In this document: piece after piece, positions 3,001 to 6,000 of the stretch
Numbering within the stretch: position 1 is the stretch's first letter
How the letters are laid out: each line of letters begins with the position of its first letter
From: a virus
Lineage: Duplodnaviria; Heunggongvirae; Uroviricota; Caudoviricetes
Strand: one strand, 5' to 3'
Virus record (IMG/VR): IMGVR_UViG_2698536484_000002
Coordinates: 1-10,383 of that record
Length of the DNA: 10,383 nucleotides
Made by a program: the position numbers

Positions 3001-6000
3001 TCACTTATAGCTGAGAGATCGTTTAGTACATCTAGTACGGATTGATATCTTTCATTTGGATCTACATGAATGCATTTGTTCACTATTGTTATTAATTTTT
3101 TATGTATATGGGGAGGATACTCTTTTAATGGATAGCAGCCATTAATTATCGACTCTCTGAGTTGTTCAATCGTGCTAAATGCAGATCTTTCTCTTTCAAA
3201 ATTATCATGTCCAACACACATTCTATATATGGTTAATCCTGCCTGATATATGTCATATGTGAAATTATAATCATTTGTTGATAAAGAAAAATATTCCGGT
3301 AGCACATGAAAATGATATCCAAACTCAGGCGCAGCTCTCGATTCCTCATTGACTAACTGAGATAATCCAAAGTCAGATAGCATGGCCTCATTTCTGTTTG
3401 ATATCATAATGTTATTAGGTTTTATATCAAAATGCATAAGACCTTTTGAGTGTATATGATAAAGTCCACTTAAAAATTGAATGGAATACCGTATTATCTC
3501 CCTGCTTGTAAGATTATTTTTTTTCATTAATTGGTTTAGCGAACCATTATGATAAAATGGCATGGCTATATAGATATTGCTCTCACATTGAGCAGCATAC
3601 TGAACTTGCACAATATTTGGATGTGCATGTTTATAGAGAAGCCTTGCTTCATTAAAGTAGTCGTCGTGGTTAGTGTTTTCTTTTTTTTCTATTTCTTTAA
3701 TCACCAAGTCATGAGCTAGGTGTCTGTCATGAGCCAGATATACTTTTGAAAAACAACCCTGTTCTTCTAGATCACTAATCCATTCGAATTCTACATCAGC
3801 TCTTTTGTATGGAGTTAGCATCCCCTTACCTCCGCAGATAGTGCAGCCAAAACAGCTTCATTTGTTTCAGTTGTAAAACCAGAATTATCGATTCCATTTA
3901 TATTGCGGTGTGACTTCAATATTTCTTTATACTCGATCTCTGTTAGGTTCAATGATGATTTCATGCCAGATTTTCTAATAGTGTAATATTTTCTTACATC
4001 ACTGCTTGAAAATGCTTCTTGAATAACAGCTTCTATATAAAGGCGGTCAATGCTAAGATTATCAGAGTTTGATTCAGTAACGCGTATGGCAGCTAATTCA
4101 ACATTATATAAATTAAGAATGTCGAGGATGTTATTTCTCACATACTTTAATTTTTCTGGTGTGTCTAAGGTCGAAGGTATTTTAATAACATCAACACATT
4201 TGAGTGCAGACTCATTAGTGCAATATACAACAAAAGATGTAACTTTGGGCGCCGCTCTAACACCTAGTATTCTCATTTTTTATATCCTATTTTAGAATCA
4301 GGCCGCATCTCTGCGACCATCCATCATCCAAACGTCTCTTCACTCATCCGAAGAAGCAGCAATCCGGGTCAGCACGCACAAGCTCAAGCGCATCAGTCAG
4401 CGAAAGTTCAGTACTGTACTGATGCCATTTCATATCCTTCCGCATCCAATAGATTTTCCATCTATCCAGAGAACGTATGTACTTGATTCTTGCTGATGGC
4501 AGGATGTTTGTTTCACCTGGATTGCCCTGCCACACGGGGCGCTGTTCGCCGATATCTATCGTTTGGTCATTGATGCTATAAACAATATCCAGTTCATTGC
4601 GGATATGTTCAGGCGGCCTTATGCTTTCAATGAATTGGTGAACTTCTTTTTTTACTGCTTGATATTCAAGGTCATTGAACGCCATCTATCCTCCTTACCC
4701 AAACGTCTCTTCAGGCCACTGGTTACCAGCTATGTGACGATGAAGTCACGAACTTTTCAGCCACTCCCTTGCCTCGATGTCATCCAGATGGCGAGATTGC
4801 TTCAGAATACCAGCTACATACTCCACCTTTGCTACTTGATGATAAGGCAACGTTATAGGCCTGTGATCCTGGTTAATGCTTGTAAATTGGTATTCTCCAT
4901 CTCTGTCATAGCCAAGAACCTTAATCATGTTGTGTCCTTCAACGGTTCTGACAAACACCTCATCACCCGGGAATACTTTGGTGTTAGGCTCAATGAGTAC
5001 ATATTCTCCTGATTTTATTCTGGGCCACATGCTGTCTCCTTTCACACGAAGACCAAAGGCATCTGGATCATCGCTATAAATTTTGAGCCACCCATCGCGC
5101 TCTTCGGTCATCTCGATGGCACCATCAACACCAAGAATTGCCTCACCAACCACGCGCACTAACCCTTTTTTTAATTTGCCAACAAATGAAAGAGTATCTT
5201 CATCATTCGCTCCATTTAACGAAGTGCCGTGCTGAAGCCAAACAACATCAACGTTTAGAAATTTCGCAAGCGCATTCATTTTTTCCTGACGCGGTAAAGA
5301 CTCAGCATTAAACCATTTGCTAACGCCTTTGGACGAAAGAGAAAGGGCACGGGCTATAGCCATTCCCCTACCATGTTCATCAAGACCAGCTTCTTTACAG
5401 GCTTGCGCTAGCCGCTGGGCGAATTCTTTGCGCACTTTTTCATTCTGAACCATGAGTACGATACTAAAGCACTTGCAAAAACTTTCAGTTCAACCATAAT
5501 GCGTACTGAAAGTACGAAAAAGGATATTCCTATGCAAAATCTTGATGAGCCGATTAAAGGTGTCGGCATCCCTGAAGTTGCGAAGGCTTGTGGAGTTAGC
5601 GAAAGGGCTGTCTATAAGTGGCTCAAAAACGGCTTCCTCCCTAAGACTGAGTTTTTTGGGAAAACTAAATACGCATCAAAAATCGAAGAGATTTCTGGTG
5701 GCAAATATCAAGCAAGCGAAATGCTTGAAATAAGCAAAAAGAACCTTCTGGCTGCATAAGTAACACCGCTATTTTCACAATGGACATTCGTCCTACGTCG
5801 CTGACAAAGCGAGTCCCAATATATCTGACCAACTAAGGCCATATGCGTTTCCACGCATACCTTTCAACTAGCTATTCACTATTGGAAATCTTAAGAAATG
5901 GAACAAACAAGTTACAGCAAACTATCACAGCGAGAAATTGATCGCGCTGAAACTGATTTACTCATCAACCTGTCAACGCTTACCCAGCGCGGTCTGGCAA

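What the first reader, a model, noticed from the sequence alone, without database searches (positions are those of the whole stretch)
4328..4713. Perfect 15-bp direct repeat bracketing the 113-aa gene
CCAAACGTCTCTTCA occurs exactly twice, at 4328-4342 and 4699-4713, on either side of the 113-aa gene. An exact 15-mer recurring by chance in 10 kb is very unlikely. It could be a cassette-insertion scar (the gene acquired as a unit) or a repeated cis element, since on the mRNA one copy precedes each of the two small genes.
Basis: seen in the sequence. Interest (0 to 1): 0.6.

Follow-up and report, generated by a model that had tools for sequence, protein, structure and literature searches.

The report
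Repressor-gene tail relics bracket a cassette
The two identical 15-base copies are leftovers of the last codons of a lambda-type phage repressor gene, and they mark the exact edges of a one-gene candidate defence cassette that related prophages carry (two copies) or lack (one copy), so they look like recombination joints rather than a regulatory signal.

Summary
In detail: CCAAACGTCTCTTCA occurs exactly twice (4328-4342, 4699-4713), against about 0.04 expected by chance. The window is the immunity region of a 933W-type Shiga-toxin phage. On the coding (minus) strand the repeat reads TGAAGAGACGTTTGG, which is the last coding bases of phage lambda cI (..W-P-E-E-T-F-G-stop). Neither copy is translated here: one lies after the 933W cI stop codon, the other directly after the stop of the 113-aa DUF3024 gene (PADLOC candidate defence family PDC-S43). 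In prophage collections this sequence ends many repressor genes and is followed by more than 20 unrelated cargo sequences. Every prophage with the DUF3024 gene has a second copy exactly 371 bp away. Prophages with the same flanks but no DUF3024 gene have one copy. Similarity breakpoints cluster on or within about 30 nt of both copies. Distant DUF3024 homologs (Erwinia, a Morganella-like branch, Rouxiella, Kluyvera) are bracketed by their own local repressor-end sequences, and the non-coding copy is better conserved than the gene. Best reading: repressor 3'-end relics that delimit a cassette and act as short-homology crossover points in the known cI-N mosaic hotspot. A cis-regulatory role has no support. 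This is a new variant of a known kind and moderately interesting.

The parts
4699..4713 (-). Proximal copy of the 15-mer (coding strand TGAAGAGACGTTTGG). It is an untranslated relic of a lambda-type cI 3' end.
   Evidence: Exact match. Identical to lambda cI codons ..(CC)T GAA GAG ACG TTT GG(C).
4714..4721 (-). CAGTGGCC, which extends the proximal relic to a 23-nt exact match with lambda cI (Q-W-P codons).
   Evidence: 23/23 identity to lambda L001. The same octamer precedes the 15-mer in most of the ~108 lambdoid loci.
4695..4697 (-). TAA stop codon of the relic reading frame (..E-T-F-G-stop). It overlaps the AAGGAGG ribosome-binding site (4690-4696) of the DUF3024 gene.
4723..4745 (-). CTTCATCGTCACATAGCTGGTAA, a relic of the 3' end of a second repressor type (SH2026Stx1-type cI, ..SSHSW-stop). 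It lies between the 933W cI stop and the proximal copy.
   Evidence: SH2026Stx1 cI ends ..IIGRVFWSSHSW-TAA with this DNA. Lambda's own post-cI segment reads LIGKVFWSAHS-stop.
4746..5453 (-). 933W-type cI repressor (235 aa; HTH plus S24 peptidase). Its TGA stop is followed in frame by 16 codons ending Q-W-P-E-E-T-F-G-stop.
4344..4685 (-). 113-aa DUF3024 gene (933W L0084), the cargo of the bracketed 371-bp unit.
   Evidence: Pfam PF11225 2e-31. PADLOC PDC-S43 5e-42. Fold model pLDDT 90.
4328..4342 (-). Distal copy of the 15-mer, one base after the DUF3024 stop codon. It is an untranslated relic of a lambda-type cI 3' end.
   Evidence: The same junction (tgag|TGAAGAGACGTTTGG) occurs in front of at least 4 different downstream contexts.
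4322..4327 (-). aTGATG: wobble base, relic stop codon TGA (4324-4326) and an overlapping ATG, as found after intact cI genes (lambda GGC TGA T).
   Evidence: nTGAT follows the 15-mer in many otherwise unrelated contexts.
4301..4318 (-). Hairpin GGTCGCAGAGATGCGGCC following the distal copy. In other prophages the same hairpin plus a T-run follows cI directly and looks like a terminator. Here the T-run is missing.
   Evidence: Compensated variant GGCTGC..GCAGCC in L130.
2775..4276 (-). Older cargo downstream of the cassette: 153-aa 'RuvC-like' gene (3815-4276) and the Stk protein kinase (2775-3821).
   Evidence: L130/L131 carry this pair behind one decayed copy without the DUF3024 gene.

Best explanation
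Both copies are fossils of the last codons of a lambda-family cI repressor gene (..Q-W-P-E-E-T-F-G-stop). That sequence is the fixed left edge of the hypervariable cargo locus between cI and N, which is transcribed with the repressor in lysogens. The DUF3024 gene, with its ribosome-binding site, sits between two such copies as a 371-bp unit (window 4328-4698, or equivalently 4343-4713). Shown: the origin of the repeat, the two-copies-filled versus one-copy-empty polymorphism, the clustering of mosaic breakpoints on or near both copies, and the recurrence of the same bracketed arrangement in distant lineages. Inferred: the copies are the places where short-homology recombination (phage Red/RecT/Erf-type annealing proteins or host RecA) joins this cassette to different repressors on one side and different cargo on the other. 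A crossover between a cassette's distal copy and the intact repressor end of another prophage places the cassette in front of that prophage's cargo and renews the relic. A crossover between the two copies would delete the cassette and leave one copy. The repeat is therefore a by-product and a substrate of modular exchange, not a signal read by the expression machinery.
For: Origin: the 15-mer equals the lambda cI 3' end and the proximal copy matches 23 nt. In E. coli OkiPb01713 (L129) the proximal copy is the real end of an intact lambda-type cI, followed by the DUF3024 gene, a second copy, the 153-aa gene and stk. Junction: about 108 prophage contigs carry the 15-mer behind at least 4 repressor lineages and in front of at least 25 unrelated sequences. 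Among 80 loci chosen only for a lambda-type cI, at least 21 downstream classes begin at the last Gly wobble base or the stop codon. Filled versus empty: all 6 of those 80 loci with the DUF3024 gene, and no others, have a second copy at +371. Three downstream contexts found after the distal copy also occur directly behind a repressor with one copy and no DUF3024 gene (L073/L074/L112; L121; L130/L131). Breakpoints: 36 of 44 cargo-side ends of similarity fall at window 4300-4320 and 30 of 40 cI-side ends at 4707-4740. The left edge of the distal copy (tgag|TGAAG) is identical in front of different cargo. Renewal: the relic is detectable after the DUF3024 stop in 9 of 13 lineages, including ones whose gene DNA is only 57-58% identical to the window's. 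In L285 the two copies differ by three synonymous third-position changes plus a TGA-to-TAG stop change. In L260 both copies share the same variant. Other units are bracketed the same way: an 87-bp unit with a 23-codon hydrophobic ORF, a 126-bp unit, and a Rouxiella array with two DUF3024 genes. Feasibility: published minimal pairing length is about 23-27 bp for Redbeta, and the full boundary is about 27 nt (PMC3945230). The cI-N interval is a recognised mosaic hotspot (PMC8585504, citing Degnan 2007).
Against: No recombination event was observed, so the crossover role is inferred from sequence patterns. Locus counts are not independent events, because many prophages are near-identical. Within the window the two copies share only 15 identical bases, below the published minimal pairing length. 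Exchange must therefore rely on the longer versions (23-27 nt, or the 15-mer plus the shared 23 nt up to the hairpin). Homologous exchange cannot create the first bracket. At least one illegitimate event is needed per bracket type, and brackets made of other sequences exist (Kluyvera, Yersinia). The uniform repeat length (14-28 nt) and the DUF3024 stop codon lying 0-5 nt from the downstream repeat in every type are not predicted by random illegitimate joining, unless long repeats are removed by selection.
Confidence: 0.62

Rival explanations
1. Passive scar: one ancient illegitimate insertion put the DUF3024 gene into the end of a repressor gene and duplicated about 25 nt. The copies have played no part in later exchange and are simply inherited.
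For: The junction 'DUF3024 stop followed by the repressor-end relic' is shared from E. coli to the Morganella-like branch, as a single old event would predict. In VT2-Sakai, where the gene is a pseudogene, the distal copy has decayed with it.
Against: A neutral scar should decay faster than the adjoining gene, yet it is better conserved (relic about 83% versus gene DNA 57-58%). Differences between the two copies in L285 are synonymous-type. Nearly identical cassettes sit between at least 4 repressor tails and at least 4 cargo contexts, with breakpoints on or near the copies. Lineage-specific variants are shared by both copies (Erwinia TTC, ST160 TGATGAGA, L260 GAA).
Confidence: 0.15
2. Target-site duplication: an unidentified insertion mechanism places the DUF3024 unit at the 3' end of whatever repressor gene it meets and duplicates about 14-28 bp of the target each time.
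For: Brackets with unrelated sequences exist: lambda-type, the other repressor-end type in Kluyvera (TGGTCGGCGCAT..TGGTGA twice), GGCTAGCCCAYAGA in Yersinia, and the L106-type end in L282. The DUF3024 stop codon lies 0-5 nt from the downstream repeat in all of them, and repeat lengths are similar.
Against: The unit encodes only a 113-aa protein with a helix/sheet/helix fold that resembles small binding proteins, with no nuclease, transposase or recombinase fold. There are no terminal inverted repeats and no integrase or transposase next to it. Repeat length is not fixed. The L106-type and lambda-type ends share the core (A/T)AGAGACG, so they may be homologous rather than independent. Long repeats would be lost by recombination, which can explain the narrow length range.
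Confidence: 0.1
3. Cis-acting element: the 15-mer is a functional RNA or DNA signal (translational coupling, processing site or protein-binding site) placed before each downstream gene of the repressor operon.
For: It lies 13 nt before the DUF3024 start and 51 nt before the 153-aa gene start. It is often followed by a TGATG stop-start overlap. The non-coding copies are unusually well conserved.
Against: The sequence is explained by repressor coding constraint wherever it is translated. There is no Rfam match and no fold signal (z +0.67 and -1.5). Untranslated copies tolerate 1-7 mismatches and internal deletions. PhiR12_2* lacks it altogether behind the same cI. Direct repeats cannot pair with each other.
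Confidence: 0.07
4. Chance recurrence of a 15-mer.
For: None beyond the fact that only two copies exist in the window.
Against: Expected 0.04 copies and 0 of 200 shuffles with two. The same bracketing recurs in dozens of prophages and several genera.
Confidence: 0.01

Closest known systems
Mosaic hotspot between cI and N of lambdoid phages (rexAB position; Degnan et al. 2007 as cited in PMC8585504; also bstA, 434 hex and 933W stk downstream of the repressor)
   Same: Same locus and same phenomenon: accessory or defence genes co-transcribed with the repressor are swapped between otherwise similar phages. Cargo here includes the Stk kinase and a PADLOC candidate.
   Different: What is added here is the anatomy of the left joint: a conserved 23-27-nt repressor tail that is repeated downstream of small cargo units and brackets them. 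I could not read Degnan 2007 or Tyler 2004, so I cannot exclude that part of this was noted there.
Short conserved 'linker' sequences at module boundaries (modular theory of lambdoid phage evolution; from my own knowledge: Susskind and Botstein 1978, Clark et al. 2001) and relaxed homologous recombination by Red/Rad52-like recombinases (PMC2327257, PMC3945230)
   Same: An island of identity lies between two variable regions, at a gene boundary, and its length is near the Redbeta minimal pairing segment.
   Different: The island is the coding end of an essential gene rather than an intergenic linker, and it exists in extra, untranslated copies that delimit single-gene units.
Displaced 'orphan' modules in Rhs, CDI and T6SS effector-immunity arrays (for example PMC5361080)
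   Same: Arrays grow by adding new cargo next to a conserved gene. Older cargo is pushed downstream and keeps a short remnant of the conserved gene's 3' part, so direct repeats separate the units.
   Different: Different genes and biology. Here the remnants are only 15-30 nt, and the conserved gene is a phage repressor. I identified PMC5361080 from its title and abstract only.
PeSL mobile regulatory cassettes of T4-type phages (from my own knowledge: Arbiol, Comeau and Krisch 2010)
   Same: Short repeated sequences flank small ORFs in hyperplastic regions and are thought to drive gene shuffling by homologous recombination.
   Different: PeSLs are promoter plus stem-loop elements with a regulatory function. 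The repeat here is a coding-sequence relic with no detectable regulatory structure.
Integron gene cassettes
   Same: Promoterless single-gene units in an array behind a fixed upstream gene and promoter, each followed by a recurring boundary sequence.
   Different: No integrase, no attC-type imperfect palindrome, and the boundary is a gene fragment. Exchange is presumably by general recombination rather than site-specific recombination.
Morons (from my own knowledge: Juhala et al. 2000)
   Same: An extra gene is inserted between two genes of a related phage and expressed from the prophage.
   Different: Classical morons carry their own promoter and terminator. This unit has neither and relies on the repressor transcript.

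Membership tests
Mosaic-junction / short-homology exchange point of lambdoid phages | Island of sequence identity flanked on both sides by unrelated sequences in different phages | tested here: met
   At least 4 upstream repressor lineages and at least 25 downstream classes around the same 15-23 nt. At least 21 downstream classes behind one cI type.
Mosaic-junction / short-homology exchange point of lambdoid phages | Breakpoints of similarity between relatives coincide with the sequence | tested here: met
   36 of 44 breakpoints at 4300-4320 and 30 of 40 at 4707-4740. Individual junctions read.
Mosaic-junction / short-homology exchange point of lambdoid phages | Recombination actually occurs at the sequence | not testable with these tools
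   Needs phage crosses or deep sequencing. Length is compatible with the Redbeta minimal pairing segment of 23-27 bp (PMC3945230).
Insertion/deletion cassette bounded by direct repeats | Filled sites have two copies; empty sites with the same flanks have one | tested here: met
   371-bp spacing in every filled site. Empty sites are L073/L074/L112, L121 and L130/L131.
Transposon or IS element with target-site duplication | Terminal inverted repeats at the ends of the unit | tested here: not met
   No inverted repeat pairs the two ends of 4343-4698.
Transposon or IS element with target-site duplication | Encoded or adjacent transposase | tested here: not met
   The unit encodes only the DUF3024 protein. 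Neighbours are cI, a RuvC-like protein, a kinase and N. The DUF3024 fold is not nuclease- or transposase-like.
Integron gene cassette | attC site (imperfect inverted repeats that fold as a hairpin) at the cassette 3' end | tested here: not met
   The 15-mer and its flanks have no dyad symmetry and no fold signal.
Integron gene cassette | Integron integrase and attI next to the array | tested here: not met
   No integrase gene in the immunity region of the window.
Integrative element inserted in the 3' end of a gene (att core repeats) | Direct repeats equal to the 3' end of the target gene, with the gene reconstituted | tested here: met
   In L129, L285 and Erwinia L132 the proximal copy is the intact repressor end and the distal copy its duplicate.
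Integrative element inserted in the 3' end of a gene (att core repeats) | Element-encoded site-specific recombinase | tested here: not met
   Absent from the 371-bp unit.
Moron | Own promoter and terminator flanking the inserted gene | tested here: not met
   No promoter-like site between cI and the DUF3024 gene, and no terminator-like site on the minus strand until 2588-2609. This is a consensus scan only.
Known RNA family or cis-regulatory RNA | Match to a curated covariance model or a significant conserved fold | tested here: not met
   No Rfam match at E <= 1 in 3700-5600. Fold z-scores +0.67 and -1.5.
PADLOC PDC-S43 (candidate single-gene defence system), for the cargo | Protein matches the family HMM over its full length | tested here: met
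   E = 5e-42, residues 1-113 of 113. Also Pfam DUF3024.
PADLOC PDC-S43 (candidate single-gene defence system), for the cargo | Protects against phage infection | not testable with these tools
   No paper in the searched library mentions DUF3024.

The most novel reading that the evidence does not exclude
The DUF3024 unit, and perhaps the small hydrophobic-peptide units, is a genuinely mobile cassette with a dedicated way of inserting immediately behind prophage repressor genes, duplicating about 14-28 bp of the repressor's 3' end each time. This would create integron-like, promoterless arrays driven by the repressor promoter, through an as yet unknown enzyme or a specialised use of phage annealing proteins. 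The DUF3024 protein itself may be functionally tied to the repressor, since it follows repressor genes even at 34% identity and its fold weakly resembles small inhibitor proteins such as PsiB.
Probability: 0.12. Interest if true: 0.75.

Novelty: new variant of a known kind. Interest (0 to 1): 0.42.

Why it matters
The interval behind the prophage repressor is one of the main places where lambdoid phages carry exclusion and defence genes (rexAB, bstA, stk). Knowing that a conserved repressor tail of about 25 nt marks the left joint, and that extra copies of it delimit single-gene units, has three uses. It gives a simple sequence handle for finding and delimiting cargo in prophages. It gives a concrete, testable model for how defence genes are shuffled among Shiga-toxin phages and their relatives. 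It also flags DUF3024/PDC-S43 as a widely travelling cassette worth testing for function. It does not reveal a new kind of molecular machine.

Tried and rejected
1. Chance: rejected.
2. Regulatory RNA: no Rfam hit and no significant fold around either copy. Only the hairpin after the distal copy is stable, and it belongs to a terminator-like module found directly behind cI in other prophages.
3. Transposon or integron-like element: no terminal inverted repeats, no recombinase, no attC-like structure.
5. Search for an empty site with exactly the window's own tail and own downstream flank in complete E. coli genomes: among the 30 of 459 matching records listed, every full-length match was split into two pieces spanning 507 bp, meaning filled. 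The empty state for that cargo was found only behind a different repressor with a decayed copy (L130/L131).
6. The single-protein scan of the genome collection for DUF3024 relatives returned only 3 loci. The alignment-based scan of viral contigs was more useful.
7. The scan with lambda cI returned only near-identical cI genes. It therefore could not test whether synonymous sites in the last codons are unusually conserved across repressor lineages.
8. Degnan 2007 and Tyler 2004 could not be read. One literature query failed on a short term.
9. I first read all upstream relics as stacked displacement scars. One search shows that some (SH2026-type and L120-type repressors) may instead be the gene's own ancestral end left behind by a frameshift and an earlier stop. 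I therefore do not count those as independent junction events.
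Full report
OBSERVATION. CCAAACGTCTCTTCA occurs at 4328-4342 and 4699-4713 and nowhere else in the 10,383-base window, even allowing two mismatches. Dinucleotide-preserving shuffles give 0.04 matches on average and never two. The exact repeat is 15 bp and cannot be extended. The copies flank the 113-aa ORF at 4344-4685 (minus strand) with a start-to-start spacing of 371 bp.

CONTEXT. The window is 99.8-100% identical to the immunity region of 933W-type Shiga-toxin phages (933W, Stx2 phage 86, phi24B, Min27).
- On the minus strand lie cI (4746-5453; HTH plus S24 peptidase), the 113-aa gene (Pfam DUF3024), a 153-aa gene annotated as RuvC-like (3815-4276), the Stk protein kinase (2775-3821), a 54-aa ORF, a terminator-like hairpin at 2588-2609, and N (1736-2119).
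- On the plus strand lie cro, cII, O (with iterons) and P.
- No terminator-like site lies on the minus strand between cI and 2609. That fits the published statement that stk is co-transcribed with cI (PMC3564112, citing Tyler 2004).

WHAT THE REPEAT IS. On the coding strand the repeat reads TGAAGAGACGTTTGG. This is exactly the end of phage lambda cI (..CAG TGG CCT GAA GAG ACG TTT GGC TGA, Q-W-P-E-E-T-F-G-stop).
- The proximal copy extends to a 23-nt exact match with lambda (CAGTGGCC plus the 15-mer) and is followed by G-TAA.
- The distal copy is followed by A-TGA-T, as lambda has C-TGA-T.
- Neither copy is translated in the window. The proximal one lies 32 nt after the 933W cI stop codon, in frame with it (K-S-S-stop-L-H-R-H-I-A-G-N-Q-W-P-E-E-T-F-G-stop). 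The distal one lies one base after the DUF3024 stop codon.
- The 23 nt between the 933W cI stop and the proximal relic are themselves a relic of another repressor type's end. The SH2026Stx1-type cI really ends ..IIGRVFWSSHSW-TAA with that DNA, and lambda's own post-cI segment reads L-I-G-K-V-F-W-S-A-H-S-stop.
The region just behind the repressor is therefore a patchwork of repressor 3'-end fossils. Some of these may be a gene's own ancestral end stranded by a frameshift rather than stacked scars.

THE SEQUENCE IS A UNIVERSAL JOINT.
Twelve are chance hits in unrelated contexts. In about 108 lambdoid contexts it is preceded by CA(G/A)TGGCC, lies behind at least four repressor lineages, and is followed, from the Gly wobble base or the stop codon onward, by at least 25 unrelated sequences.
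- In 80 loci selected only for encoding a lambda-type cI, 68 end with the exact 15-mer and 12 with a synonymous CCA variant. At least 21 unrelated downstream classes follow; lambda's own rexA-type flank is one of them and occurs once.
- This agrees with the literature: the cI-N interval is a known hotspot of mosaic diversity that holds rexAB, bstA and similar genes (PMC8585504, citing Degnan 2007).

THE 113-AA GENE IS A CASSETTE BOUNDED BY THE TWO COPIES. Every locus with an E. coli-type DUF3024 gene has a second copy (0-2 mismatches) exactly 371 bp downstream of the first, and no other locus among the 80 has one.
- Nearly identical cassettes sit behind the 933W tail, behind intact lambda-type cI genes, and behind the SH2026-type cI. 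In the lambda-type cases (L012, L052, L129) the proximal copy is real coding sequence and its TGA lies inside the DUF3024 ribosome-binding site.
- The cassettes sit in front of at least four different cargo contexts.
- For three of those contexts the empty state exists. The sequence gtgataggaagtaag.. directly follows cI plus one copy in L073, L074 and L112. The sequence atgatggatggtcgcagagatgctcgtag.. does so in L121. The window's own cargo (153-aa gene plus stk) follows a different repressor and one decayed copy (TGATTAGACATTTGG) in E. coli MIN6 and JNE112863.
- H-19B has the 933W-type cI tail, one copy and no DUF3024 gene.
- Ends of similarity to the window cluster at 4300-4320 on the cargo side (36 of 44 that are not locus edges) and at 4707-4740 on the cI side (30 of 40). 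These are counts of loci, not of independent events.

THE ARRANGEMENT IS OLD, RECURRENT AND KEPT FRESH.
- Erwinia (60% protein identity): a repressor ending W-T-E-E-T-F-G-stop, then the DUF3024 gene, then TAG|TGGCCGTAAGAGACGTTCCGGTGATG.
- A distant branch (35-40% identity): the DUF3024 stop is followed by CAGTGGCCTGACGACACGTTTTAG (Q-W-P-D-D-T-F-stop), the local version of the repressor end. In L285 the real repressor end upstream differs from it by three synonymous third-position changes and a stop-codon change. In L295 the upstream repressor is of another type, yet the downstream relic is still present.
- The relic is significantly detectable in 9 of 13 lineages. It is better conserved (about 83% to the consensus in L285) than the adjoining gene DNA (57-58% to the window's).
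- Both copies often share lineage-specific variants (Erwinia TTC, ST160 TGATGAGA, L260 GAA). Where the gene is a pseudogene (VT2-Sakai), the distal copy has decayed.
- Other units are bracketed in the same way: an 87-bp unit encoding MREYLIVGVVTLLSVVAIVLMVA, a 126-bp unit encoding a 32-aa hydrophobic peptide, and a Rouxiella array with two DUF3024 genes and at least three boundary copies plus a possible decayed fourth.
- Brackets made of other sequences also exist: the other repressor-end type in Kluyvera, GGCTAGCCCAYAGA in Yersinia, and the L106-type repressor end in L282 and L106. The L106-type end shares the core (A/T)AGAGACG with the lambda type and may be homologous to it.

MECHANISM. A passive ancient scar does not explain a non-coding relic that is better conserved than its gene, nor identical cassette edges in front of different cargo. 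The best-supported reading is that the boundary sequence is where short-homology recombination joins modules.
- A crossover between a cassette's distal copy and the intact repressor end of another prophage places the cassette in front of that prophage's cargo and replaces the relic with freshly coding-constrained sequence.
- A crossover between the two copies deletes the cassette and leaves one copy.
- The full boundary (about 27 nt) is at the published Redbeta minimal pairing length of 23-27 bp, against 31-34 bp for RecA (PMC3945230). The 15 bp shared inside the window is below it, which would make the resident cassette fairly stable.
- Shown: origin, polymorphism, breakpoint clustering, recurrence. 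Inferred: the recombination itself and the enzymes involved.
- Unexplained: why every bracket type has a repeat of 14-28 nt and has the DUF3024 stop codon 0-5 nt from the downstream repeat. Loss of cassettes flanked by long repeats, together with my inability to detect very short relics, may account for this. A dedicated duplicating insertion mechanism cannot be excluded.

RIVALS TESTED.
- Cis-regulatory element: no Rfam match, no fold signal, untranslated copies tolerate mismatches and an internal deletion (Lambda_2E9), and PhiR12_2* has no copy behind the same cI.
- Transposon or integron: no terminal inverted repeats, recombinase or attC-like structure.

CARGO. The DUF3024 protein matches PADLOC candidate defence family PDC-S43 (5e-42). 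The kinase matches PD-T4-6-type kinase models, and 933W Stk is reported to abort HK97 infection (PMC3564112). No paper in the searched library mentions DUF3024. The gene lies directly behind a prophage repressor in nearly all lineages examined, even at 34% identity.

VERDICT. The finding is a new variant of a known kind, a short-homology joint in the known cI-N mosaic hotspot, with one unexplained regularity in how the brackets are formed. Interest is moderate.

Noticed in passing
window 4746-4748 and 4695-4745: The 933W cI TGA stop (context TGA-C) is followed in the same frame by 16 sense codons ending Q-W-P-E-E-T-F-G-TAA. The gene looks like a repressor whose ancestral lambda-type end was cut off by an earlier stop. 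Whether any readthrough product is made is unknown.
   Followed up: partly
window 4301-4318; L130 about 2529-2546: The hairpin after the distal copy (GGTCGC AGAGAT GCGGCC) has a compensated variant in E. coli MIN6 (GGCTGC AGAAAC GCAGCC). In several prophages the same hairpin carries a T-run and sits directly behind cI like a terminator. In the window the T-run is replaced by TGATTCT, consistent with readthrough into the 153-aa gene and stk.
   Followed up: partly
window 2286-2304 and 5793-5811: A 19-nt inverted repeat (95% complementary). Both early transcripts contain (G/T)CGCTGACAAAGCG(C/A), a stem-loop that matches my recollection of the H-19B/933W nutL and nutR boxB sites.
   Followed up: partly
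window 6575-6697: Four to five copies of ATCCCTCAAAACGAGGG inside the O gene. These are the replication-origin iterons expected in a lambda-type O gene.
   Followed up: no
L063 7551-7652; L106, L111, L120, L125, L127: An 87-bp unit bracketed by the same boundary sequence encodes a 23-aa hydrophobic peptide (MREYLIVGVVTLLSVVAIVLMVA). Its ATG overlaps the repressor stop (TGATG) and its own stop is the TGA at the start of the next boundary copy. L111 has a further 126-bp unit encoding a 32-aa hydrophobic peptide. These could be small membrane toxins or exclusion peptides.
   Followed up: partly
L299 (Rouxiella badensis CP049603) 87-2148: Array behind an S24 repressor: boundary copy, DUF3024 gene, possible decayed copy, lipoprotein-like ORF, boundary copy, second DUF3024 gene (53% identical to the first), boundary copy, DUF333 gene.
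   Followed up: partly
L001 (phage lambda) about 37175-37222 in NC_001416: Lambda itself carries, between cI and rexA, a relic of another repressor type's 3' end (reads L-I-G-K-V-F-W-S-A-H-S-stop-stop in one frame).
   Followed up: partly
[not shown]
   Followed up: partly
L135 (VT2-Sakai NC_000902) about 1940-2345 of the locus: VT2-Sakai, Stx2 phage 1717 and the PA-series phages carry a frameshifted, unannotated DUF3024 pseudogene behind a lambda-type cI end, followed by a decayed boundary copy and an intact terminator.
   Followed up: partly
window 2588-2609: A GC-rich hairpin with T-runs on both strands (bidirectional terminator-like) lies just downstream of the 54-aa ORF. It is probably the end of the repressor operon.
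   Followed up: no
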